From positions 59,568 through 123,567 of the forward strand of contig CAWBLF010000001.1 in assembly GCA_963789635.1 (NCBI GenBank): a stretch of 64,000 nucleotides of DNA. Direction: 5' to 3'. Made by a program: the position numbers and the translations under genes. This document shows, piece after piece, positions 2,525 through 61,904 of the stretch; the first letter of the stretch is position 1, and every line of letters starts with the position of its first letter. Below the pieces are notes generated by a model. It made no database searches. It was not told the origin of the DNA and saw nothing but the letters and a program-made list of their open reading frames with translations. This DNA is from an uncultured bacterium. GTDB taxonomy: Bacteria; Patescibacteriota; Minisyncoccia; Phycocordibacterales; Zambryskibacteraceae.

Positions 2525-3067
2525 ATGGCAGTTATCAAACACAAAGATCAGCGCGTCGGCATTTTTATTGACACTCAAAACCTTTATCACTGCGCCAAAA
2601 ACCTATACCACGCCAAAGTCAATTTTGGGCAAGTTGTCAAAGACGCTTTGGCTGGTCGCGTCCTAATTCGCGCAGTCGCTTATGTGATAACTACCGAAAG
2701 CGGGGACGAAAAAGGGTTTTTTGAAGCCTTGGAAAAAGCTGGCATCGAAACAAAAACCAAAAACCTCCAAGTGTTTGCCGGAGGAGCAAAAAAGGGTGAC
2801 TGGGACGTAGGACTGGCCATGGATGCTGTAAAAATGGGACCAAAGTTGGACACAGTCATAATCGTTTCTGGTGATGGTGACTTCGTTCCTCTTGTTGAAT
2901 ATCTCCAAAACACTCACGGGTGCCAAGTAGAAGTCGTGTCTTTTGGCAAATCATCTTCAGGCAAGCTGATAGAAGCTACTGACGACTTCCTGGATCTTGA
3001 TTCTAATCCACGCAAGTATCTTATGGGCCGTCCTCAAAAAAGAGGCCCGAGACCGACAGAAATGTAA
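2525..3067 (+). CDS. NYN-domain (LabA/DUF88-like) putative RNase
   Basis: Contains VGIFIDTQNLYH...GDWDVGLAMDAV...VIIVSGDGDFVPLVEYLQ..G..VEVVSF, the typical NYN/LabA acidic motifs. Confidence 0.75.
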   Translation: MAVIKHKDQRVGIFIDTQNLYHCAKNLYHAKVNFGQVVKDALAGRVLIRAVAYVITTESGDEKGFFEALEKAGIETKTKNLQVFAGGAKKGDWDVGLAMDAVKMGPKLDTVIIVSGDGDFVPLVEYLQNTHGCQVEVVSFGKSSSGKLIEATDDFLDLDSNPRKYLMGRPQKRGPRPTEM

Positions 3068-44696: not shown

Positions 44697-45029
44697 CAAA
44701 ATACAGAAACATCCCGCCTGCGCGGGATTTTCTGATTCTGTGCGAGGCGCAGACATGTTTTGTAGTAACAAAACAGTCGAGCCGGGGTCGCGAGATTTTT
44801 CTGCAGAAAAATACTTGTGACCACAAATACAGAAACATCCCGCCTGCGCGGGATTTTCTGATTCTGTGCGAGGCGCAGACATGTTTTGTAGTAACAAAAC
44901 AGTCGAGCCGGGTGAGAGCGAACACTCGGAGCTTTGCAAGACCTTGAGCGTTTTGTATTCAAAATGCGAAAGGTGTACAGATCCTGTAAGGATCGCGGAA
45001 ATTTTCAGTAGAAAATTATCTGTGACCAC
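44695..45029 (+). repeat. Two tandem copies of the tRNA-trailer composite element (H1-H2-H3-GTGACCAC); the second copy carries an ~85-nt insertion
   Basis: Copy 1 spans 44695-44824 and copy 2 spans 44822-45029. The first ~90 nt are identical (period 126). See findings for the hairpin structure. Confidence 0.85.
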
Positions 45030-49431: not shown

Positions 49432-49572
49432 GTGGTCACGAATAATTTTTGTTTCGTCAAACAAAAATTTTCTCGACCCCGGCTCACCATAGCCAATTGC
49501 TATTGGCTATATGTTTGCGCCTAGCACAGAATCAGAAAATCCCGCGCAGGCGGGATGTTTCTGTATTCTGTG
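49432..49572 (-). repeat. tRNA-trailer composite element copy (3' of tRNA-Arg-GCG)
   Basis: On the tRNA-sense strand: H1 identical to the 44.7-kb copies, H2 = ATAGCCAAT-agca-ATTGGCTAT, GAGCCGGGGTCG, H3 = AATTTTTGTTT-gacg-AAACAAAAATT, and the end ...TTCGTGACCAC. Confidence 0.85.
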
Positions 49573-49642
49573 CTCCCAGTAGGAATCGAACCTACATTTT
49601 AACTTCCGCAAAGTTATATCCTATCCATTGAACGATGGGAGC
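49571..49642 (-). tRNA. tRNA-Arg (anticodon GCG)
   Basis: Hand fold: acceptor GCTCCCA/TGGGAGC, anticodon arm TAACT-TT-GCG-GA-AGTTA, T arm GTAGG-TTCGATT-CCTAC. The D stem relies on G-U pairs and the variable loop is 4 nt. Confidence 0.75.
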
Positions 49643-49647
49643 AATAC

Positions 49648-49670
49648 TTTTGTCGACTACGTCGACAAAA
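49648..49670. terminator. Bidirectional hairpin
   Basis: TTTTGTCGAC-tac-GTCGACAAAA lies between the tRNA-Arg 5' side and the 3' end of the beta-helix protein gene. Confidence 0.5.
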
Positions 49671-49808
49671 TATGACTAAAAATGCTTTTACATTATAAAC
49701 CAGTTTGCAAATTATCCGCAAAAAAACAAAATTTTTTTGGCCAACATTTATGCTTGTCGCATGAACTCACGATACTATCACAACAAACGGAAATTTGTTA
49801 GGTTTGAA

Positions 49809-51944
49809 TTATTGGCTGACACTCCTTTTGGTTAAGCTACCAAAATACCCAGTAGGATTTATGCCAACACTTTTTTGATATTCAATTAGCGCGGCTTTGG
49901 TCAACTGTCCGAAATATTTTGTGGCCCCGTGCATTTTTAGTTCCAAAGATCTCGGTCCCGCATCTTTGTTCATCAAAAAACTCTGGAGAGCAGTCACATC
50001 CGGTCCGGAAAGTCCCAAGTAGAGATCGCGGGTATAAGCGTATGTGGATACGGTGTTTGTGCCCGACGATGTCGTGGCAGGCAAGGTGCCAGTGTCAAGA
50101 ATCTGAATAAGACTTGATGGAACATATATGCCTTTTGCCTGAGCTTCCAAAATCAAAGCCTTGTTTGCAATTATCAGGGAAATTATTTGCTGTTTCAAAG
50201 CCGTAGCAGAAACATTCGAATTGGTGACGCCACTACTACCAGATGTCGGTGGTATTGAATACGAACTACCACCACCGCCACCCCCGCCACCACTTGAGAC
50301 TGTGGGCGTCGGAGTGGGCGCTGATCCTCCTCCACCGCCACCAGAGACGACTGGGGTTGTGACGACTGGAGCGGGCACTGTGACTGGCGGAGTCACTACA
50401 GGAGGGGTGGTTGGGGTGACAGGTGTAACGACCGCAGGGGCGGGGGCAGTAGGCAAGCTTGGCGGAGTCACTGAGCCGGCGCCCATATCTGGGCAGACGC
50501 CAGAGTCAATGAGGCTGTAATTGTTTGATGAAGGACTGACAAAGATTTTTGTAGGGTCCGATTGGATAATGAATTTGGAATTGGTATCGAATCCGTAGAG
50601 CCGATTTGCTGTTGTGTAATTGTCAAATTCTGATGGGTTACCGGTGTTCCAATTTCTTTTGACAAACAAAGTGTCTGAGCTTGGAGTAATGAAACAATTC
50701 TGGTCTGAATGAGTCTTCTGAAGAATGGAAAGTGCCGGGCTCACAGGATCCGAGGCGACATAACTTTTACTAATATACGCCGGCGTATCCCAACCCGCGC
50801 CAGTGGTTTCACCGTTCATTCCGAAGAATATATTGTTTGATATTACATTTCCCTCACCGCTACCGATATTCATAATATTATTCAGTCCCACGAATGTGTT
50901 GTTTTGAATTATTTCATTTTGTCCTTCTATGGCCTCGATGTTTGGGTCGGTGGACTCTTGGAATCCGAGCCCCCAGAATCCATCGGGAACCGCATAGACT
51001 AGGTTGTGGTTGAAGTGAACATTGGAAGCATCGGCTAAAGCAATAGTGTCAGAATCGTGAATGATGTTGCCGTGTATTTCTATCGGTCCATCCATCGGAT
51101 TTTTGAAGAAAAAGGCTTGGGGGAGGTTGTACATTTCATTTCCAGTAATTTCAATGTAGCCCGTGCCACCTGCGGCAAAGTTGACATAGACTTGAGCCGA
51201 CAAAACTGTCACCGCGCCATAGTGCTGGAAGTCAGCGACGCCGTGCCATACTCCCGGATTCGAAGGATCGGACATCCCGTGAAATTTGTTGTTGCTGATA
51301 AAAATATTGTATGCGCCTCCCTTATCGGCACGATCGATTTTTATCATCCCGACATTGTTACCACTTCCTCCGTATGACACAAAATCGTGAATATTGTTGT
51401 TCTCAATAATGATGTCGTGCGAATTGCCGGTGATATAAATATCTGAAGTATTTTTTTCCTGACTTCCGTCGATGTCAAACCCACTAATAGTCCAGTACGA
51501 TTTATCAATATTGATGTGTGATGTCTGGGTAAACATCGGAACTTCTCCAGGATAGTTTTTGATTGTAATCGGTTGCCCCGGCAAACCATTACGAACAGTG
51601 TATTTCGGAATGGTGCTGCCCCAATAGTCTTGAATAGATATCATCACTTGCGATTGCTGGCTAGCATAATAGCTGACATAGAGCATGGAGTTTGCAGAAG
51701 TGTAAGTTCCTCCACGCGCATAAATGAAATCTCCCGGCATAGCCGCAATAATGGCGGGTTGGAAGGTTTTGAACGGCGCGCCAAAAGTACCGGCGTTGGA
51801 ATCACTCCCGTCAGGCGCAACGTAGTAACAGTGCGCCGGAGCGACAGCTTCGCATATGCCTGTATCAGCTAAAACACGGGAAGATGAAAAAAAGAACAAC
51901 GGGATGGTGAGGAGAAGGAGAGCGACGTGTCTATAATGTTTCAT
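49809..51944 (-). CDS. Secreted right-handed beta-helix protein with Pro/Thr and poly-Gly linkers and C-terminal peptidoglycan-binding domain
   Basis: Signal LLLLTIPLFFFSSSRVLA and repeated NN.I.. / GN.I..N beta-helix rungs (IIIENNNIHDF, IFISNNKFHG, IEITGNEMYN, IIQNNTFVG, VISNNIFFG). Linkers: PAPAVVTPVTPTTPPVVTPPVTVPAPVVTTPVVSGGGGGGS...SSGGGGGGGGSS. C-terminal PG_binding_1-like segment: LGLSGPDVTALQSFL...YFGQLTKAALIEYQ. Confidence 0.7.
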   Translation of the reverse strand: MKHYRHVALLLLTIPLFFFSSSRVLADTGICEAVAPAHCYYVAPDGSDSNAGTFGAPFKTFQPAIIAAMPGDFIYARGGTYTSANSMLYVSYYASQQSQVMISIQDYWGSTIPKYTVRNGLPGQPITIKNYPGEVPMFTQTSHINIDKSYWTISGFDIDGSQEKNTSDIYITGNSHDIIIENNNIHDFVSYGGSGNNVGMIKIDRADKGGAYNIFISNNKFHGMSDPSNPGVWHGVADFQHYGAVTVLSAQVYVNFAAGGTGYIEITGNEMYNLPQAFFFKNPMDGPIEIHGNIIHDSDTIALADASNVHFNHNLVYAVPDGFWGLGFQESTDPNIEAIEGQNEIIQNNTFVGLNNIMNIGSGEGNVISNNIFFGMNGETTGAGWDTPAYISKSYVASDPVSPALSILQKTHSDQNCFITPSSDTLFVKRNWNTGNPSEFDNYTTANRLYGFDTNSKFIIQSDPTKIFVSPSSNNYSLIDSGVCPDMGAGSVTPPSLPTAPAPAVVTPVTPTTPPVVTPPVTVPAPVVTTPVVSGGGGGGSAPTPTPTVSSGGGGGGGGSSYSIPPTSGSSGVTNSNVSATALKQQIISLIIANKALILEAQAKGIYVPSSLIQILDTGTLPATTSSGTNTVSTYAYTRDLYLGLSGPDVTALQSFLMNKDAGPRSLELKMHGATKYFGQLTKAALIEYQKSVGINPTGYFGSLTKRSVSQ

Positions 51945-51982
51945 TTTTATTGATGATAGCTATTTATTAAAATAAATGCTCT

Positions 51983-52450
51983 TTAAAACCCGATGTATTC
52001 CATCAGCTTGTGAAGGACCGATTCATTGTGAAATACTTCTGGCAGATGATGTAAAAGATACTCGTGGACATCGTCCGGGTCGGCATCGCTAATCGGCAAA
52101 ATGATATAAGGCATCACAAGCCGCTGGGATTTGATAAGGACTCTGGAACTCGCCTCATTTTCCTCGAGCCAGAATGATTCAAGGGTGTGATACGGATAAA
52201 ATACTTTCTCCACGCGAACACCTTTTTCGTTCAGGGTAATATCAATCTCTTTTGGCGGCCGTGCCGCGTATAAGGACAGGACAAAACCGGAGAGGACAAT
52301 GACGAAAGCAAAGAGCACATCGTGGAGAATGATAGCCGTTATGGATAATGCAATGGTAATGATGCCCACTGCCCAAAACCAATCAGGGCTTCGTTCGTGG
52401 TAATCGTATTCCATCGCCTGCCATCCCAATTCGTTATTTTTTTTCGTCAT
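51983..52450 (-). CDS. Hypothetical two-TM membrane protein
   Basis: 155 aa: WFWAVGIITIALSITAIILHDVLFAFVIVLSGFVLSLY. No family was recognised. Confidence 0.5.
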   Translation of the reverse strand: MTKKNNELGWQAMEYDYHERSPDWFWAVGIITIALSITAIILHDVLFAFVIVLSGFVLSLYAARPPKEIDITLNEKGVRVEKVFYPYHTLESFWLEENEASSRVLIKSQRLVMPYIILPISDADPDDVHEYLLHHLPEVFHNESVLHKLMEYIGF

Positions 52451-52488
52451 ACAACTTTGAATTATATCATGACTTCACTTTAGAGGGG

Positions 52489-52938
52489 TCAGCGCAGTGC
52501 CATCAAAAGGTCTAAAACTTTGGTATTTGCTATAAACAAAGTCAGGATAAAAATGACCGTGCACATGAGGGCGGAAAAAAGGCACCAAGTGCACCAGTGT
52601 TTGATGACAAACATTTGTATTGACGTGAGATACATTGAAAAAAGGAATCCGCACAAGCATACTCCGACGATAAGATAAGGCCCAAAGTAGGGCATCTGAG
52701 AGGGCAACAAAACAAAAAATGCATAGAAAACAAAGATGAATGAGTAATAAATCATTCCAAGGATTTCAACATTAAGTCCAAAAATTTTGGAGTAATCACT
52801 ATGGACCACTCTTTCACAGCTTCCCTCGAGTGGGCAGACTAGAGGGATGTCCGCTTTTTTGGTGGCGTGGATGTAGGCTGCGATAGTGAAACCGGCGGCA
52901 GAGAATGTCAGGGCCAATATTTCCGCGAGGAACGTCAT
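52489..52938 (-). CDS. Vitamin K epoxide reductase (VKOR) family protein
   Basis: Four TM segments, loop cysteines VCPLEGSCERV, YSKIFG..VEILG and the CxxC active site HWCTWCLFSA. Confidence 0.8.
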   Translation of the reverse strand: MTFLAEILALTFSAAGFTIAAYIHATKKADIPLVCPLEGSCERVVHSDYSKIFGLNVEILGMIYYSFIFVFYAFFVLLPSQMPYFGPYLIVGVCLCGFLFSMYLTSIQMFVIKHWCTWCLFSALMCTVIFILTLFIANTKVLDLLMALR

Positions 52939-53098
52939 TGCAATAAGTTTATCACAGAAAAATCGTACTGACGCGCAAAGGTGTGCGCTTTTTTGTCGCG
53001 CGTATTCGGATAACCCGATTTGATAATTGCCAAAATTTTAAAATTGAAAAAAGTGGTGAATTGTGTCAATATTTCAAAGCAATTTAAGTGTGTAATAC

Positions 53099-53185
53099 GG
53101 AGGAGTGGCAGAGTGGTCTATCGCACCGCTCTTGAAAAGCGGAAGGCTCGAAAGGGTCTCGTGAGTTCGAATCTCACCTCCTCCG
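53099..53185 (+). tRNA. tRNA-Ser (anticodon TGA)
   Basis: Acceptor GGAGGAG/CTCCTCC, anticodon arm CCGCT-CT-TGA-AA-AGCGG, a long variable arm, and T arm GTGAG-TTCGAAT-CTCAC. Confidence 0.9.
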
Positions 53186-53337
53186 CAATGATCCGCGAAA
53201 ATGTCTGGGAGACATTTAAACGGAGCATCATTTCTAGAGGAGGTGAGATTCGAAAGCCATAGGCCAGCGTAGGCTGGCGAGGCGGGGTAGCGGAAATTTT
53301 CAGCAGAAAATTATCCGTCGCCGAATCTCACCTCCTC
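53186..53337 (+). repeat. tRNA-Ser trailer element variant, ending in a 16-nt direct repeat of the tRNA 3' end
   Basis: An inverted 18-nt copy of the tRNA 3' end sits at 53237-53254. H2-like hairpin: GCCAGC-gtag-GCTGGC. Then GAGGCGGGGTAGCGG, H3 AAATTTTC-agca-GAAAATT, and the direct repeat CGAATCTCACCTCCTC (53322-53337 = 53168-53183). Confidence 0.8.
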
Positions 53338-53381
53338 AACCAACCAGAGATAGGTTATTGTGCTCGAGAAGCATTAAAACA

Positions 53382-53513
53382 ATGATATATAAAGAGTTAC
53401 CATCGGACTGGAAAGATTTACAGCAAAAAGTAGCCAATATTTTTCTTGATGTTGGTTTTTCTGACGTTGGTATTGAAAAGAGTATAAAAAGTGCCAGGGG
53501 AACAATAAATTAG
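53382..53513 (+). pseudogene. 43-codon ORF resembling the N-terminus of a PD-(D/E)XK (Mrr-like) nuclease, apparently truncated
   Basis: MIYKELPSDWKDLQQKVANIFLDVGFSDVGIEKSIKSARGTIN* stops just where such nucleases continue with the catalytic (I)D(V/I) strand. A CTCCG..CGGAG+T-run terminator follows. The family call is pattern-based and weak. Confidence 0.3.
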
Positions 53514-53747
53514 GCCACTCCGTATTCTCGGAGCGGTTTTTTCTTATCTGAGGAATGGCTTTGGATACTAGTGATGACGACTTTTTTGTTGTTGTTGTAA
53601 TTTTTAAACCATGAAGCAGTTACTCGTTTATATACGTTGTTTATAACTTTTTTAGTAAATTCTTGCCCCGAAATGCTTACCAGATAACTATTAACGTGTA
53701 GTTGTGTTTGTGTTTGGAAGACACATTATTAGCCTAGCCAAAAAAAT

Positions 53748-55439
53748 ATGAAATTAAACAAAAAATATATGAATGAGGTTAGGGAATTAAACATAAACCA
53801 CTCCGAAGAGAGACAGCGAAGAATTATTTATTCGCTTCTAGTTGCTTTGGTCTATGTATTACTCCCGTTGAGTTTTGGAAATATTGTTTTTGCAGAACAA
53901 CAAGGCAATGGACAGATCAATGGAAATTCAAATTATGGTTCTGGCTTAAACGCCGGAGGAAATGCTTCTAATTTTGGTTCTGGTGTGGGTGGTAATACTG
54001 ATAGTGATGGTGGCAGTAGTGGAGGAAGTGTAAACTCCGGAAGCAGTAGCGTAGATACTTCTGTATCAGAATCAAGTAGTAATAATTCTGGTGGAGTTAA
54101 TGCGGGCGGGGTAAACTCAGGAGGGGGAAGCGGTGGTACCGGTGGTTCAAAAGGTGGGGGTGGAGAAGTGGAAACTACCGCAGGGAATAATCTTTCGTTT
54201 CCTACGATTGCTGGCGATGGATTTGCCATTGTTCCCATATCACAAACATTGTTTACTAAGCAATACAGCGGTCTTTATGTAGGGCTTACGGCAGAGGAAA
54301 TCGCTTCCCTTCAAGGATACGAGTGGTATGCCCAAAAAACTGATGGAAATATATGGCAAGCTGGTTATTTCCTAAATCCATCTGGAACTCGCATAAATAT
54401 TTTCGGTGTTGATTGGGGTGATAATGTTGAATCGGTCAATCCTCTTCTTGGTCAGCCGTTTAGGTTGGAAGTGACACTTTATACGAAGCCAACCACACTG
54501 ATGATCGGATACAACATGAGAGCGCTTGCAAATCCAAGTAGTCCAGATGAGATTCAGGGGACAAACAAGGTAACATATGAAAGTTTGTTTGCGACAGTGG
54601 CTTCCCCGCGCCCAACTATGGTTATTCAGCATATTCTAGATGCGAGCGCAACTTCTAGTTTGGTCTGGAATGGGACAGCATGGACTAAGGATGGATTAGT
54701 TATTCCAACAACGACCATTAGTTTCGGACCTGAGCTCAATGTTGCAGGTAAATATGTATATGGTGCATCGAGTGGGGGATGGAGACCCGTTGAAGATGGT
54801 CTTTATCGTTTGACCTTCTATGCCCCTGCAAGTGACATATCATTTCGAGATGCAGTCGTAGGTAACCTTGCAGACTGGAGTACAACAACAGAAGTTGCAA
54901 CCGAAACAGAAACTGGCGTAGCGAAGCCGGTAATTGATGTGGCGGATAATCTCACATATATAGACACAACGGTTGTCTCTGGTCGTACGGGCCAAAAACC
55001 TGCAAGTACCAGTGGGTCAGGAAGTAGTTCAGGCAATACGGGCGGGGGGAGTGGTGGGCAAACTTCATCTACTCTGCTAACCGCAAGTGTTTTGAGTAGT
55101 GTTGATGCTAGTACTGACAGTACAAACACAAACGGAAACAATAACTCTAAATGCGAGCCATACCTTACAGATTATTTGAGTCCTACCAAACAAAATAATC
55201 CATATCAAGTTATTTTGCTTCAGGAATTCTTAAATGAAACACTGGGTACAAATATTCCATTAACCGGTGTTTATGGAAATCAAACTATAAATGGAGTAAA
55301 TCTTCTTCAGACAACATATCCGGATGAAATACTAAAGCCATGGGTTGATGCTGGACACGAAGATGTTTCTCTTGTAAAAGGTACGGGCAATGTATATGTG
55401 ACAACTCTTGCCAAAATAAATGGTATGAAGTGTCACTGA
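53748..55439 (+). CDS. Secreted Gly/Ser-rich surface protein with C-terminal PG-binding-like domain
   Basis: TM/signal IIYSLLVALVYVLLPLSFGNIVFA and long GS/GN low-complexity regions around a central globular domain. C-terminal segment: CEPYLTDYL...QVILLQEFLNETLG...LTGVYGNQTINGVNLLQ. Confidence 0.6.
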   Translation: MKLNKKYMNEVRELNINHSEERQRRIIYSLLVALVYVLLPLSFGNIVFAEQQGNGQINGNSNYGSGLNAGGNASNFGSGVGGNTDSDGGSSGGSVNSGSSSVDTSVSESSSNNSGGVNAGGVNSGGGSGGTGGSKGGGGEVETTAGNNLSFPTIAGDGFAIVPISQTLFTKQYSGLYVGLTAEEIASLQGYEWYAQKTDGNIWQAGYFLNPSGTRINIFGVDWGDNVESVNPLLGQPFRLEVTLYTKPTTLMIGYNMRALANPSSPDEIQGTNKVTYESLFATVASPRPTMVIQHILDASATSSLVWNGTAWTKDGLVIPTTTISFGPELNVAGKYVYGASSGGWRPVEDGLYRLTFYAPASDISFRDAVVGNLADWSTTTEVATETETGVAKPVIDVADNLTYIDTTVVSGRTGQKPASTSGSGSSSGNTGGGSGGQTSSTLLTASVLSSVDASTDSTNTNGNNNSKCEPYLTDYLSPTKQNNPYQVILLQEFLNETLGTNIPLTGVYGNQTINGVNLLQTTYPDEILKPWVDAGHEDVSLVKGTGNVYVTTLAKINGMKCH

Positions 55440-59403: not shown

Positions 59404-59406
59404 TTG

Positions 59407-59497
59407 TGGTCAGTGGTTTCGTCTACAGACGAAACATTACTTAGCTCGGCACAGAATCAGAAAATCCCGCGCAGGCGGGATGTTTCTGTATTCTGTG
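59407..59497 (-). repeat. Short tRNA-trailer element copy (3' of tRNA-Arg-TCT)
   Basis: On the tRNA-sense strand: canonical H1, CCGAGCTAAGTAAT, the hairpin GTTTCGTC-tgta-GACGAAAC, and the end CACTGACCAC. Confidence 0.8.
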
Positions 59498-59567: not shown

Positions 59568-59623
59568 ATGCATAACTAATCTTACACAAAAGCGTTATAT
59601 ATTAAAGCAAAAATATTGTGTTG

Positions 59624-59705
59624 TGGGCACGGAGAGATTTGAACTCTCAAGCCTTGCGGCATACGCTTCTGAAGCGTACGCGTATACCAGTTCCGCCACG
59701 TGCCC
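59624..59705 (-). tRNA. tRNA-Leu (anticodon CAG)
   Basis: Acceptor GGGCACG/CGTGCCC, anticodon arm TACGC-TT-CAG-AA-GCGTA, a long variable arm (TGCCGCAAGGCT), T arm GAGAG-TTCAAAT-CTCTC. Confidence 0.85.
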
Positions 59706-59763: not shown

Positions 59764-59783
59764 TACCAGTTCCGCCACGTGCC
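59764..59783 (-). repeat. Orphan 20-nt copy of the tRNA-Leu(CAG) 5' end (tRNA nt 2-21)
   Basis: TACCAGTTCCGCCACGTGCC at 59764-59783 is identical to 59685-59704 inside the tRNA. The copy lies 58 nt upstream of the tRNA in the tRNA orientation. Confidence 0.85.
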
Positions 59784-59794
59784 AAAATGTGTTT

Positions 59795-59930
59795 GTGGTC
59801 ACAGATAATTTCTTTGCCGTCGCAAAGAAATTTACGCGACCCCGCCTCGCGGTTTTGCGTACTCGCAAAACATCGCTGTGGCTCCCACAAAAGCACAAAA
59901 TCTGCCGAAGGGAGGTCTTTGTGTCTTTTG
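59795..59930 (-). repeat. tRNA-trailer composite element copy (3' of tRNA-Val)
   Basis: On the tRNA-sense strand: a divergent H1 (CACAAAAGACACAAAG...CTTTTGTG), H2 = GTTTTGCG-agta-CGCAAAAC, GAGGCGGGGTCGCG, H3 = AATTTCTTTGC-gacg-GCAAAGAAATT, and ...TCTGTGACCAC. Confidence 0.8.
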
Positions 59931-61753: not shown

Positions 61754-61801
61754 CAGAATGCAAAAACATCCCACACAAACGGGATGTTTTTGCATTCTGT
61801 G
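61752..61801 (+). repeat. H1-type trailer hairpin variant (perfect 21-bp stem) abutting tRNA-Leu(GAG)
   Basis: CACAGAATGCAAAAACATCCC-acacaaac-GGGATGTTTTTGCATTCTGTG. It shares the CACAGAAT/ATTCTGTG base and ATCCC/GGGAT top with the canonical H1, while the middle segment differs on both arms. Confidence 0.85.
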
Positions 61802-61904
61802 CCTGAAAGTATGCTTTTGAGTTTACATAGCTATTTCCTGGTGTAGTATTAAGAAGCAGAGATATAAGATAAACATATTTATATTATCAGATTTATTTTA
61901 AATT

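What the first reader, a model, noticed from the sequence alone, without database searches (positions are those of the whole stretch)
53166..53513. tRNA-Ser is followed by inverted and direct copies of its own 3' end, a trailer-element variant and a truncated nuclease-like ORF
**Repeats of the tRNA 3' end**
- An 18-nt perfect inverted copy of the T-loop/acceptor 3' strand (GAGGAGGTGAGATTCGAA, 53237-53254) can pair with tRNA nt 53166-53183. With flanking partial complementarity this forms a long hairpin that would sequester the tRNA 3' half.
- A 16-nt direct repeat (CGAATCTCACCTCCTC, 53322-53337) lies 138 nt after the gene, like an attL/attR pair enclosing only the trailer-like module.

**Downstream remnant**
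- A 43-codon ORF just downstream looks like the N-terminus of a PD-(D/E)XK (Mrr-like) nuclease cut off before the catalytic strand. A non-coding stretch follows up to 53747.

**Interpretation**
- Together this resembles the decayed edge of an integrated element at tRNA-Ser.
- It links the trailer-element family to integration at tRNA 3' ends.
Basis: partly seen in the sequence, partly recalled or inferred. Interest (0 to 1): 0.55.

Follow-up and report, generated by a model that had tools for sequence, protein, structure and literature searches.

The report
RtT-like RNA cassette behind tRNA-Ser
The copies of the tRNA-Ser 3' end are the two arms of the closing stem of a small structured RNA cassette that Patescibacteria carry behind many tRNA genes; its only described counterpart is the little-understood E. 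coli RtT RNA, and the short ORF next to it is a truncated Mrr-type nuclease gene.

Summary
All parts of the observation are real. The 18-nt inverted copy (53237-53254) and 16-nt direct copy (53322-53337) of the tRNA-Ser 3' half are exact. The 43-codon ORF is the N-terminus of a Mrr_cat nuclease, cut just before the catalytic strands.

The two copies also pair with each other. They close a three-way-junction core (53255-53322) that scores 55 bits (E 3e-11) with a covariance model of the window's trailer family.

The family is Patescibacteria-wide: over 120 loci, 96.5% of cells paired and 18 of 23 pairs covarying. It lies downstream and same-strand of tRNAs of any identity, and of tmRNA. An inverted and a direct copy of the neighbour's 3' end flank the core throughout the family, so this locus is a typical member.

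At the orthologous tRNA-Ser, relatives have no cassette, or the same arms around a different core.

E. coli RtT (RF00391) has the same architecture, and its annotated RNA ends at the CCA of the copy. The cassette is not an RF00391 member.

Best reading: a co-transcribed, RtT-like trailer RNA with a tRNA-minihelix mimic, gained and lost through its repeats. The "decayed island edge" reading is only partly supported. Function is unknown.

The parts
53044..53073 (+). Promoter-like site (TTGAAA, 18 nt, AATATT) upstream of tRNA-Ser
   Evidence: Consensus scan only. Weak evidence.
53099..53186 (+). tRNA-Ser(tga); no CCA is encoded
   Evidence: ARAGORN; Rfam RF00005, 53.9 bits.
53166..53183 (+). DR1/X: T-loop, T-stem 3' strand and acceptor 3' strand of the tRNA. 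This is the segment that is copied.
53187..53232 (+). Hairpin 1: the Ser-type trailer hairpin (AATGAT..GAA..hairpin..TAA..ATCATT). It is not terminator-like.
   Evidence: It folds. The same hairpin follows tRNA-Ser in 9 other loci, with 12 of 15 pairs covarying. No terminator was called here.
53237..53254 (+). X': inverted copy of the tRNA 3' half. It is the 5' arm of closing helix P1 and can alternatively pair with the real tRNA.
53255..53322 (+). Type-1 trailer core, a three-way junction. P2 is 53256-58 with 53281-83, enclosing hairpin 53263-78. P3 is 53286-53322 with bulged A 53313.
   Evidence: Model R1, 55.4 bits, E 3e-11. Family covariation. This copy has lost some family invariants: ATA for GGA at 53259-61, GTCGCC for GTGACC at 53317-22, and A for C at 53289.
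53322..53337 (+). DR2: direct copy of tRNA nt 53168-53183; the 3' arm of P1
53338..53346 (+). AACCAACCA tail after P1. It resembles a discriminator plus CCA. This is not a general feature of the family.
   Evidence: Read from the sequence. Only a few other copies have CCA here.
53382..53513 (+). Truncated Mrr-type (PD-(D/E)XK) nuclease gene: the N-terminal 43 codons plus the stop codon
   Evidence: No continuation in any frame.
53515..53545 (+). Terminator-like hairpin with a T-run. It is the first one downstream of the tRNA.

Best explanation
**What it is (shown)**
- Positions 53187-53346 are one copy of a family of small structured cassettes that Patescibacteria carry behind tRNA and tmRNA genes.
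- The cassette has a trailer hairpin and a conserved three-way-junction core.
- The closing helix of the core is built from an inverted copy (X') and a direct copy (DR2) of the neighbouring tRNA's T-loop, T-stem and acceptor 3' strand.
- This Ser copy is a typical 'long-arm' member, not an oddity.

**How it most likely works (inferred)**
- The cassette is transcribed with tRNA-Ser. There is a promoter-like site at 53044-73, and the first terminator-like site is at 53515-45.
- X' can pair with the real tRNA 3' half or with DR2. When it pairs with DR2, the tRNA is free to fold, and the cassette closes into a mimic of the tRNA's acceptor/T-arm minihelix (6 + 5 + 5 bp, then AACCA).
- That mimic lets the enzymes that trim tRNA ends also release the cassette RNA and set its 3' end.
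- E. coli RtT RNA is the precedent. It has the same architecture, and its annotated 3' end is the CCA of the tRNA-Tyr copy.
- What the released RNA does is unknown. Its invariant junction and bulged-A hairpin look like a protein-binding site.

**Evolution (inferred)**
- The direct repeats make cassettes easy to lose, duplicate in tandem or swap. This would explain the empty sites and the different cores at the same tRNA in relatives.

**The ORF**
- The truncated Mrr gene is a separate neighbour: a pseudogene in the variable segment between tRNA-Ser and ruvX.
For: **This copy**
- The core is identified by model R1.
- The two folds of the precursor are nearly isoenergetic: -113.1 versus -109.5 kcal/mol.
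- There is a promoter-like site upstream and no terminator-like site before 53515.

**The family**
- The core motif was found in at least 120 stretches of genome contigs, almost all Patescibacteria.
- R1 gives 123 hits in 98 sources.
- 96.5% of cells are paired versus 79.9% in shuffles; 18 of 23 pairs have double changes; slid controls reach at most 53%.
- G-U pairs occur in 120 of 123 and 49 of 123 sequences at two positions, which points to the tRNA-sense strand.
- An upstream tRNA or tmRNA is on the same strand in 73 hits and on the opposite strand in 2.
- An exact direct copy of 10 nt or more occurs in 24 of 73 copies versus 0 of 73 controls. An inverted copy of 10 nt or more occurs in 33 of 73 versus 1 of 73.
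- Both pairings are stronger than mismatched controls (p 5e-11 and 5e-7).
- The same arrangement follows tmRNA.

**Relatives**
- At the orthologous tRNA-Ser, L183 and L189 have no cassette. L184 and L187 have X' and DR2 around a different core.
- The tRNA-Arg(gcg) locus shows the same turnover.

**E. coli RtT**
- Each unit contains a complement of the tRNA-Tyr T-stem, then GAUGAGAA, a core and a 19-nt copy of the tRNA 3' end.
- Rfam draws exactly that closing stem.
- The annotated rttR ends at the CCA of the copy.
- 18 of 122 CPR cores share the GAYGAGAA junction.
Against: - There are no expression or processing data for any CPR copy. Co-transcription rests on consensus scans only.
- In the short-arm class, hairpin 1 looks like an intrinsic terminator. 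That would keep the core out of most transcripts.
- Behind 5S rRNA the core lies antisense, inside a partial 5S copy. This does not fit a purely co-transcribed RNA.
- In 16 copies DR2 extends to the exact tRNA end while X' covers only the T-stem. Pairing alone does not explain that identity.
- X' pairs better with the real tRNA than with DR2 in 53 of 65 copies.
- This particular copy has lost several family invariants, so it may be inactive.
- The CCA-like tail is not general.
- The window does not match Rfam RtT. The link to RtT is architectural, not demonstrated homology.
Confidence: 0.5

Rival explanations
1. A miniature, non-autonomous mobile DNA element. It inserts at the T-loop-to-3'-end of tRNA and tmRNA genes, and into loops of other stable-RNA gene copies. 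The direct copy is a target duplication or att-like repeat. The conserved core is what a trans-acting recombinase, transposase or reverse transcriptase recognises, with no RNA role needed.
For: - There are empty sites and different cores at the same tRNA in relatives.
- Tandem and nested copies exist.
- DR2 often ends exactly at the tRNA end and is longer than pairing requires.
- Cores sit inside duplicated 5' fragments of tRNAs, and antisense inside a 5S fragment.
Against: - Target duplication does not create the inverted copy.
- Copies within one genome share only the core. Their hairpins differ by compensatory changes, so there are no near-identical bursts.
- The orientation bias follows the tRNA strand strongly.
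- No transposase or integrase was seen next to the copy examined.
- The core motif is absent from 2.9 million viral contigs, apart from one chance hit.
- Arms matched to every tRNA identity would need re-specification at each move.
Confidence: 0.2
2. One reading: the repeats are attL/attR-like scars at the decayed edge of a larger element integrated at tRNA-Ser, and the nuclease fragment is its remnant cargo.
For: - The ORF is a truncated Mrr nuclease gene.
- The tRNA-Ser to ruvX interval has different genes in every relative.
Against: - The direct repeat lies only 136 nt after the gene and encloses just the cassette.
- No other copy of the repeat exists in the 64 kb.
- The same inverted-plus-direct arms flank the core at many tRNAs and tmRNAs.
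- The two nuclease homologues whose loci were examined are not near tRNAs or cassettes.
- No integrase domain was found in the flanking ORFs tested.
Confidence: 0.1
3. A cis-acting switch on tRNA maturation. The trailer's inverted copy sequesters the tRNA's 3' half (18 bp plus hairpin 1) until the decoy copy is transcribed. This times or gates 3'-end processing or quality control of tRNA-Ser.
For: - The two mutually exclusive folds lie within about 4 kcal/mol of each other.
- X' is complementary to the real tRNA across the family, and more strongly than to DR2.
- In short-arm copies the 5-nt complement covaries with the last 5 nt of the tRNA in 5 of 5 window copies.
- The tRNA-Leu(gag) trailer has this complement without any core.
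Against: - It does not explain why a conserved three-way-junction core is needed.
- It does not explain why different cores substitute for one another.
- It does not explain why relatives do without the cassette at the same tRNA.
- It does not explain cores inside 5S or 5' tRNA fragments.
Confidence: 0.12
4. A largely neutral by-product. Hairpin-rich trailers undergo quasi-palindrome (fold-back) template switching and slippage, which repeatedly copy the constrained tRNA end into both arms. The arms therefore carry no function of their own.
For: - The arms are perfect in this copy although its core has lost invariants.
- Arm lengths range continuously from 4 to 25 nt.
- Some X' have a non-complementary spacer of acceptor-strand length.
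Against: - The arms are significantly matched across deep lineages and across several core types.
- E. coli RtT keeps the same design.
- A shared GAYGAGAA junction next to the arm suggests selection.
Confidence: 0.08

Closest known systems
RtT RNA (rttR; Rfam RF00391) of the E. coli tyrT-tyrV operon
   Same: - Checked here on NC_000913.3.
- Units follow a tRNA on the same strand.
- Each unit holds an inverted copy of the tRNA's T-stem/acceptor (GGGGAAGGAT), a GAUGAGAA junction, a multi-helix core and a 19-nt direct copy of the tRNA 3' end that starts in the T-loop.
- Rfam's consensus closes the RNA with exactly those two arms.
- Units occur in tandem.
- The annotated RNA ends at the CCA of the copy.
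- A preprint (10.1101/2024.07.17.603846) describes rtT as involved in processing of the adjacent tyrT transcript and as probably modulating the stringent response.
   Different: - There is no detectable sequence or covariance-model similarity. RF00391 does not hit the window at E up to 10, nor any CPR locus at gathering score.
- The core fold differs.
- The RtT copies examined here (E. coli K-12) all lie in the tyrT-tyrV operon. From my own knowledge, not tested, the family is confined to enterobacteria and to that tRNA.
- The CPR family sits behind tRNAs of about 20 identities and behind tmRNA.
- It comes with at least 3 core types and is spread over a whole phylum.
attL/attR duplications made by integrases that target tRNA genes (prophages, genomic islands)
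   Same: - A direct repeat runs from the T-loop to the 3' end of the tRNA, so that the gene stays intact.
- There is presence/absence polymorphism at the same tRNA.
- A variable gene segment lies next to the tRNA.
   Different: - The repeats are 136 nt apart and enclose no genes.
- There is an additional inverted copy.
- No integrase was found.
- The interior is a conserved structured RNA with covariation.
Hairpin-forming miniature repeats (MITE-like: Correia/NEMIS, ERIC, RPE, REP/PATE). This comparison rests on general knowledge.
   Same: - They are small (about 100-170 nt) and non-coding.
- They are closed by inverted arms.
- They are co-transcribed with neighbours.
- They occur in tandem and nested copies, with variable presence among relatives.
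   Different: - The arms are copied from the neighbouring gene rather than constant terminal repeats.
- Copies within a genome are not near-identical.
- They are strictly associated with the ends of stable-RNA genes.
- Sequence and structure are conserved across a phylum.
tRNA-like structures cut by tRNA-processing enzymes (mascRNA of MALAT1, viral 3' tRNA-like structures, the tRNA-like domain of tmRNA). This comparison rests on general knowledge.
   Same: An acceptor/T-stem stack followed by an NCCA-like tail could recruit RNase P, RNase Z or the CCA-adding enzyme.
   Different: - There is no T-loop. The helix continues and opens into a three-way junction.
- The mimic copies its own neighbour.
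- Processing is untested.
Mrr-family restriction endonucleases (Pfam PF04471). This applies to the ORF only.
   Same: The ORF is 52-60% identical to the first about 43 residues of Mrr_cat proteins of about 245 aa.
   Different: - The ORF ends before the catalytic D...E-X-K strands.
- It is a fragment and cannot be an active nuclease.

Membership tests
Type-1 tRNA-trailer cassette of Patescibacteria (defined here by model R1) | Three-way-junction core: P2 with a GGA/GA internal loop, a GG junction, and P3 (GGUCGCG..AU-rich stem with bulged A..CGUGACC) | tested here: met
   R1 hit at 53255-53322, 55.4 bits, E 3e-11. Three invariant positions are altered in this copy.
Type-1 tRNA-trailer cassette of Patescibacteria (defined here by model R1) | Lies 25-150 nt downstream of a tRNA or tmRNA gene on the same strand | tested here: met
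   The core starts 68 nt after tRNA-Ser on the + strand. Across the family, 73 are same-strand and 2 opposite.
Type-1 tRNA-trailer cassette of Patescibacteria (defined here by model R1) | The core is flanked 5' by an inverted copy and 3' by a direct copy of the neighbouring tRNA's 3' region | tested here: met
   18-nt and 16-nt exact copies. Family statistics.
RtT RNA (Rfam RF00391) | Match to the RF00391 covariance model at its gathering score | tested here: not met
   No RF00391 hit in 53000-53800 at E up to 10, nor in the window at gathering score. The same search finds 4 copies in E. coli at 133-137 bits.
RtT RNA (Rfam RF00391) | Architecture: tRNA, then an inverted copy of the T-stem/acceptor, a core, and a direct copy of the tRNA 3' end from the T-loop, with the two copies forming the closing stem | tested here: met
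   Window. E. coli.
Island integrated at a tRNA gene by an integrase | An integrase or recombinase gene inside the element | tested here: not met
   No integrase domain in the flanking ORFs tested. Between the repeats there is no room for a gene. The whole window was not scanned.
Island integrated at a tRNA gene by an integrase | A distal direct repeat of the tRNA 3' end bounding a multi-kb segment | tested here: not met
   The only copies of the repeat lie at 53168, 53237 (inverted) and 53322.
Island integrated at a tRNA gene by an integrase | Presence/absence polymorphism at the same tRNA in relatives | tested here: met
   Cassette and gene content both vary, but no full island with att repeats was seen.
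MITE / IS200-IS605-derived palindromic element | Constant terminal or subterminal repeats, many near-identical copies, and a short fixed target duplication or none | tested here: not met
   The arms are tRNA-specific. The window copies share only the core and, in three copies, a 32-nt stretch of hairpin 1. Repeat length varies from 4 to 25 nt.
MITE / IS200-IS605-derived palindromic element | An autonomous partner encoding the transposase | not tested
   Complete genomes could not be scanned with these tools.
Intrinsic terminator (for hairpin 1 of this locus) | A G+C-rich stem followed by a U-run | tested here: not met
   No terminator-like site between 53187 and 53514. Hairpin 1 of the short-arm copies does look terminator-like.
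tRNA-like minihelix substrate of RNase P, RNase Z or the CCA-adding enzyme | A stacked acceptor and T stem of about 12 bp with a 3' NCCA | tested here: met
   6 + 5 (+5) bp made of tRNA-Ser's own stems, followed by AACCA. This is seen by sequence only.
tRNA-like minihelix substrate of RNase P, RNase Z or the CCA-adding enzyme | A T-loop, and actual cleavage or CCA addition | not testable with these tools
   The T-loop is replaced by a helix extension and the junction. Enzymology is needed.
Mrr_cat (PF04471) nuclease (the ORF) | Homology to the domain | tested here: met
   There is no direct Pfam hit. Its phmmer homologues (E 5e-5 to 6e-4, 52-60% identity over residues 1-43) all carry Mrr_cat at E 1e-9 to 1e-13.
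Mrr_cat (PF04471) nuclease (the ORF) | Catalytic D...(E/Q)-X-K strands present | tested here: not met
   The ORF ends at ..ARGTIN*, immediately before VDV...ECK of the homologues. No frame continues.

The most novel reading that the evidence does not exclude
- The cassettes (types 1-3 here, and RtT in enterobacteria) would be one undescribed class of element.
- Such an element builds its own closing helix by copying the end, or a loop-flanking arm, of the adjacent stable-RNA gene. This would be a target-templated, self-propagating RNA or DNA cassette.
- Alternatively, they would be the RNA subunit of a phylum-wide RNP that mimics tRNA and acts on tRNA or tmRNA 3' ends.
- Either way, this would be a new piece of tRNA biology in the Candidate Phyla Radiation.
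Probability: 0.3. Interest if true: 0.85.

Novelty: new variant of a known kind. Interest (0 to 1): 0.62.

Why it matters
- RtT has been an isolated curiosity. The copies examined here lie in a single E. coli tRNA operon, and its function is unclear.
- The same design recurs behind tRNAs of all identities and behind tmRNA across Patescibacteria. It has strong covariation, several interchangeable cores and rapid turnover.
- This turns RtT into a general class and offers hundreds of natural variants for working out what such trailers do.
- It bears on how the reduced CPR genomes mature CCA-less tRNAs.
- It bears on whether tRNA mimicry is used to process or stabilise small RNAs.
- It bears on why tRNA 3' flanks are hot spots of genome change.
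- It warns annotators that copies of tRNA ends are not always integrase scars.

Tried and rejected
- **Rfam:** searches at gathering score and at E-value threshold on the window and on 12 related loci found no family for any of the three core types.
- **Literature:** five searches (topics, and the core sequence itself) found no description.
- **Known ribozymes and motifs:** I compared the core by eye with hammerhead, HDV-like, twister, k-turn and box C/D. Junction lengths and conserved bases do not fit. The GAUGAGA/NUGA resemblance to boxes C and D is left as unexplained.
- **IS200/IS605-type element or TnpB-like guide:** rejected, because the arms are tRNA-specific, a direct repeat is present, and what precedes DR2 differs between core types (ACC, GAG/GGG, CGG).
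- **Origin of DR2 from mature tRNA by reverse transcription:** only 2-3 copies carry CCA where the gene lacks it, so this was not pursued.
- **Cassette as a tRNA intron:** I removed the element with all boundaries within a window in 15 loci and re-ran ARAGORN. No spanning tRNA was found. Those cases are cores inside duplicated 5' fragments.
- **Metagenome scan:** a scan with the tRNA-Ser 3' 31-mer returned 61 loci, mostly unrelated bacteria, and none with this trailer. Orthologues were obtained instead through the neighbouring VKOR gene.
- **Peptide:** the word-indexed protein search found nothing. Only the exhaustive phmmer search did.
- **Viral contigs:** one chance hit inside coding sequence.
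Full report
**1.

tRNA-Ser(tga) lies at 53099-53186. An exact 18-nt inverted copy of its T-loop, T-stem 3' strand and acceptor 3' strand lies at 53237-53254. An exact 16-nt direct copy lies at 53322-53337. The 16-mer occurs three times in the 64-kb window, all within these 172 nt. With up to 3 mismatches allowed, 0.29 matches are expected.

Together they form a hairpin of -60.8 kcal/mol, z = -8.

**2. What the arms enclose**

The interior is a copy of the window's trailer element. I built covariance model R1 (63 positions, 23 pairs) from 63-nt cores found elsewhere. Three of the 23 seed rows were natural 65-nt cores that I shortened by one base pair; all later statistics use natural sequences only.

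R1 hits 53255-53322 at 55.4 bits, E 3e-11. The other window hits lie behind tRNA-Lys (44745-44822 and 44964-45027), tRNA-Arg(gcg) (49434-49495) and tRNA-Val (59797-59867). Every hit is on the strand of its tRNA.

The Ser copy has lost some family invariants:
- ATA instead of GGA at 53259-61;
- GTCGCC instead of GTGACC at 53317-22;
- A instead of C at 53289.

**3. The family**

Almost all are Patescibacteria, including Saccharibacteria, Paceibacterota and the Nomura-, Kaiser-, Adler-, Taylor-, Zambryski- and Moranbacteria groups. Two are evident chance hits.
- R1 then found 123 copies in 98 sources.
- On that alignment 96.5% of cells are paired, against 79.9% in shuffles. Eighteen of 23 pairs show double changes, and slid controls reach at most 53%.
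- The alignment is fitted to the model, so these counts lean towards the structure. The slide control and the many pair types are still strong.
- Near-invariant G-U pairs point to the tRNA-sense strand.
- A tRNA or tmRNA lies upstream on the same strand in 73 copies and on the opposite strand in 2. Seventeen further copies are cut by contig ends.
- Neighbours include tRNAs of about 20 identities and tmRNA.
- The motif is absent from viral contigs apart from one chance hit.
- No Rfam family matches.

**4. The copies of the tRNA end are a family-wide feature**

Just 5' of the core lies a complement of the neighbour's 3' region (X'). Just 3' of the core lies a direct copy of it (DR2).

| Feature | Adjacent tRNA | Mismatched control |
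|---|---|---|
| Exact DR2 of 10 nt or more | 24 of 73 | 0 of 73 |
| Exact X' of 10 nt or more | 33 of 73 | 1 of 73 |
| Mean duplex energy, X' with the real tRNA | -19.6 kcal/mol | -12.8 kcal/mol |
| Mean duplex energy, X' with DR2 | -14.7 kcal/mol | -10.3 kcal/mol |

Two classes grade into each other.
- **Long arms.** This is the class of the Ser copy. DR2 starts at T-loop position 56-58 and often runs to the exact tRNA end, including CCA where it is encoded.
- **Short arms.** X' is GTGNN, complementary to the last 5 nt of the tRNA. It covaries in 5 of 5 window copies. The element ends in ..GTGAC-CAC, -GAC or -CAT, copying the last 3 nt of the tRNA.

At 18 and 16 nt, this locus is at the long end of a continuous range.

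**5. Relatives**

Orthologous loci were reached through the adjacent VKOR gene. Synteny is PilM, tRNA_bind, RuvX, a variable segment, tRNA-Ser(tga), VKOR, DUF5673, tRNA-Arg(gcg).

| Locus | Downstream of tRNA-Ser(tga) |
|---|---|
| Window | Ser-type hairpin, X', type-1 core, DR2 |
| L183 (VKOR 76% identical) | A protein-coding gene 48 nt after the tRNA; no cassette |
| L189 | Only the first 18 nt of the Ser-type hairpin, then ruvX |
| L184 | Ser-type hairpin, X' (GAGGAGAGATTTGAA), a different "type-2" core, DR2 |
| L187 | Long hairpin, X' (GAGGTGAGATTCGAA), type-2 core, DR2 |

The type-2 core has the signature ..GGTGTACTG-RCC-TGTAAGG...

A third core type with the same terminal copy appears in metagenome loci L154 and L145. 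The tRNA-Arg(gcg) locus shows the same turnover. The window and L183 both have type-1 copies there, in which every stem differs yet is kept.

Hairpin 1 (53187-53232) is a conserved feature of tRNA-Ser trailers, independent of core type. Twelve of 15 pairs covary in 10 sequences.

**6. The ORF**

The 43-aa product has no Pfam, PDB or word-index hit. Exhaustive phmmer against 1.84 billion representatives finds 10 proteins at E up to 1e-3. Five of them are 162-263 aa long and align from their first residues at 52-60% identity. All five carry Mrr_cat.

The ORF stops immediately before their VDV...ECK strands, and no frame continues. The two homologues whose loci were examined lie near no tRNA and no cassette. 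The fragment is therefore a neighbour of the cassette, not part of it.

The tRNA-Ser to ruvX segment differs in gene content in all five genomes. A variable islet next to the tRNA is therefore real.

**7. Transcription and folding**

A promoter-like site precedes the tRNA (53044-73). The first terminator-like site on the + strand is at 53515-45. The tRNA, the cassette and the ORF fragment may therefore be one transcript; this is an inference.

Two mutually exclusive folds are nearly isoenergetic:
- X paired with X', which unfolds the tRNA: -113.1 kcal/mol;
- native tRNA plus a self-closed cassette: -109.5 kcal/mol.

**8. Closest known**

I checked E. coli K-12 directly. The 19-nt 3' end of tRNA-Tyr (AATCCTTCCCCCACCACCA, starting in the T-loop) occurs six times: in tyrT, in tyrV, and at the end of four RtT units (RF00391, 133-137 bits).

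Each unit also contains GGGGAAGGAT, the complement of the T-stem and acceptor start, followed by GAGAA. Rfam's consensus closes the RNA with exactly these two arms. The annotated rttR RNA ends at the CCA of the copy.

Eighteen of 122 CPR cores have the same GAYGAGAA junction, a two- to three-base change of the T-loop complement. The architecture is therefore the same. Membership in RF00391 was tested and not met.

**9. Mechanism**

- **Shown:** the structure, its conservation, its position and strand, the neighbour-derived arms, the alternative pairing, the turnover in relatives, and the architectural identity with RtT.
- **Inferred:**
  - the cassette is co-transcribed with the tRNA;
  - the closing helix, which here reproduces the acceptor and T stems of tRNA-Ser and is followed by AACCA, lets tRNA-end enzymes release the RNA and set its 3' end, as the RtT annotation suggests;
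  - DR2 keeps X' from unfolding the tRNA;
  - the repeats mediate loss, tandem duplication and swapping.
- **Unknown:** the function of the released RNA.

**10. What does not fit**

- Hairpin 1 of the short-arm copies looks like a terminator.
- Cores lie antisense inside partial 5S copies.
- Cores lie inside duplicated 5' fragments of tRNAs.
- DR2 is often longer than X'.

These points keep a DNA-level mobile element as a serious rival. Neither target duplication nor an att site, however, explains the inverted copy.

**11. Verdict**

The finding is real and its details are accurate. The repeats are the arms of an RtT-like cassette, not an island scar. The nuclease fragment and the variable segment are genuine but separate.

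The family is undescribed in Rfam 15, and the papers I could search do not describe it. I class it as a new variant of a known kind.

Noticed in passing
window 44905-45027 (+): Nested chimera behind tRNA-Lys. The second tandem type-1 copy is interrupted after GAGCCGGG by a GTGAGAGCG..GCAA module plus a type-2 core (GACCTTGAG..GAAAGGTGTACAGATCCTGTAAGGAT). It then resumes with the type-1 P3, ending CTGTGACCAC. R1 scores 42 bits at 44964-45027.
   Followed up: partly
window 59764-59783 (-): A 20-nt copy of the 5' end of tRNA-Leu(cag) (GGCACGTGGCGGAACTGGTA) lies 60 nt upstream of the real gene (59623-59705), just after the tRNA-Val cassette. It resembles the duplicated 5' tRNA fragments that hold cores in L091 and L056.
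   Followed up: partly
window 61755-61803 (+) and 59406-59494 (-): The tRNA-Leu(gag) trailer hairpin pairs with the last 5 nt of the tRNA (GTGCC) but has no core. The tRNA-Arg(tct) trailer has hairpin 1, one further hairpin and ..CTGACCAC, but lacks the GAGSCGGGG core. The complement of the tRNA end can therefore exist without the core.
   Followed up: partly
L078 4264-4326 (-) and L003 981-1043 (-): Just downstream of 5S rRNA (L078 4109-4215 +, L003 838-943 +) the type-1 core lies antisense, inside a partial sense copy of 5S. This is an exception to the same-strand rule.
   Followed up: partly
L069 about 2730-2835 (+): A tRNA 5' half (GGGGGTATAGCTCAGCTGGTAGAG) runs directly into a GTGAGAAGCG module plus a type-1 core, and the remainder of a tRNA follows after GTGAC. 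It may be a tRNA gene interrupted by the cassette. The stretch is partly N-masked, so this is unresolved.
   Followed up: no
L184 3080-3255 (-), L187 3560-3792 (-), L154, L145: Two further small cores occupy the same place between an inverted and a direct copy of the tRNA-Ser 3' end. Type 2 has ..GAAAGGTGTACYG, a hairpin with a TGTAA loop, then AG. Type 3 has ..GTTCGCGTWGGAG..ACGG. Neither is in Rfam.
   Followed up: partly
L063, L065, L049, L108, L038, L067 (3' of the core): An optional extra hairpin (for example CCTGCCTGCCGGCAGGCAGG) is inserted inside the direct copy, between the T-loop part and the T-stem/acceptor part, and the latter stays intact.
   Followed up: no
window 53748-55439 (+) and the tRNA-Ser to ruvX interval in L183-L189: The window has a 563-aa Gly/Ser-rich protein with an N-terminal hydrophobic segment. 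Relatives have unrelated genes in this interval: a 321-aa protein, PdaC-like, DUF2805/flavin reductase/DPRP, or nothing. This is a hot spot of gene turnover next to tRNA-Ser.
   Followed up: partly
L001 (Logan contig, window 49588-53210): A 99.9%-identical short-read contig breaks inside tRNA-Arg(gcg) at one end and in the loop of the Ser trailer hairpin at the other. Cassette hairpins may fragment assemblies.
   Followed up: no
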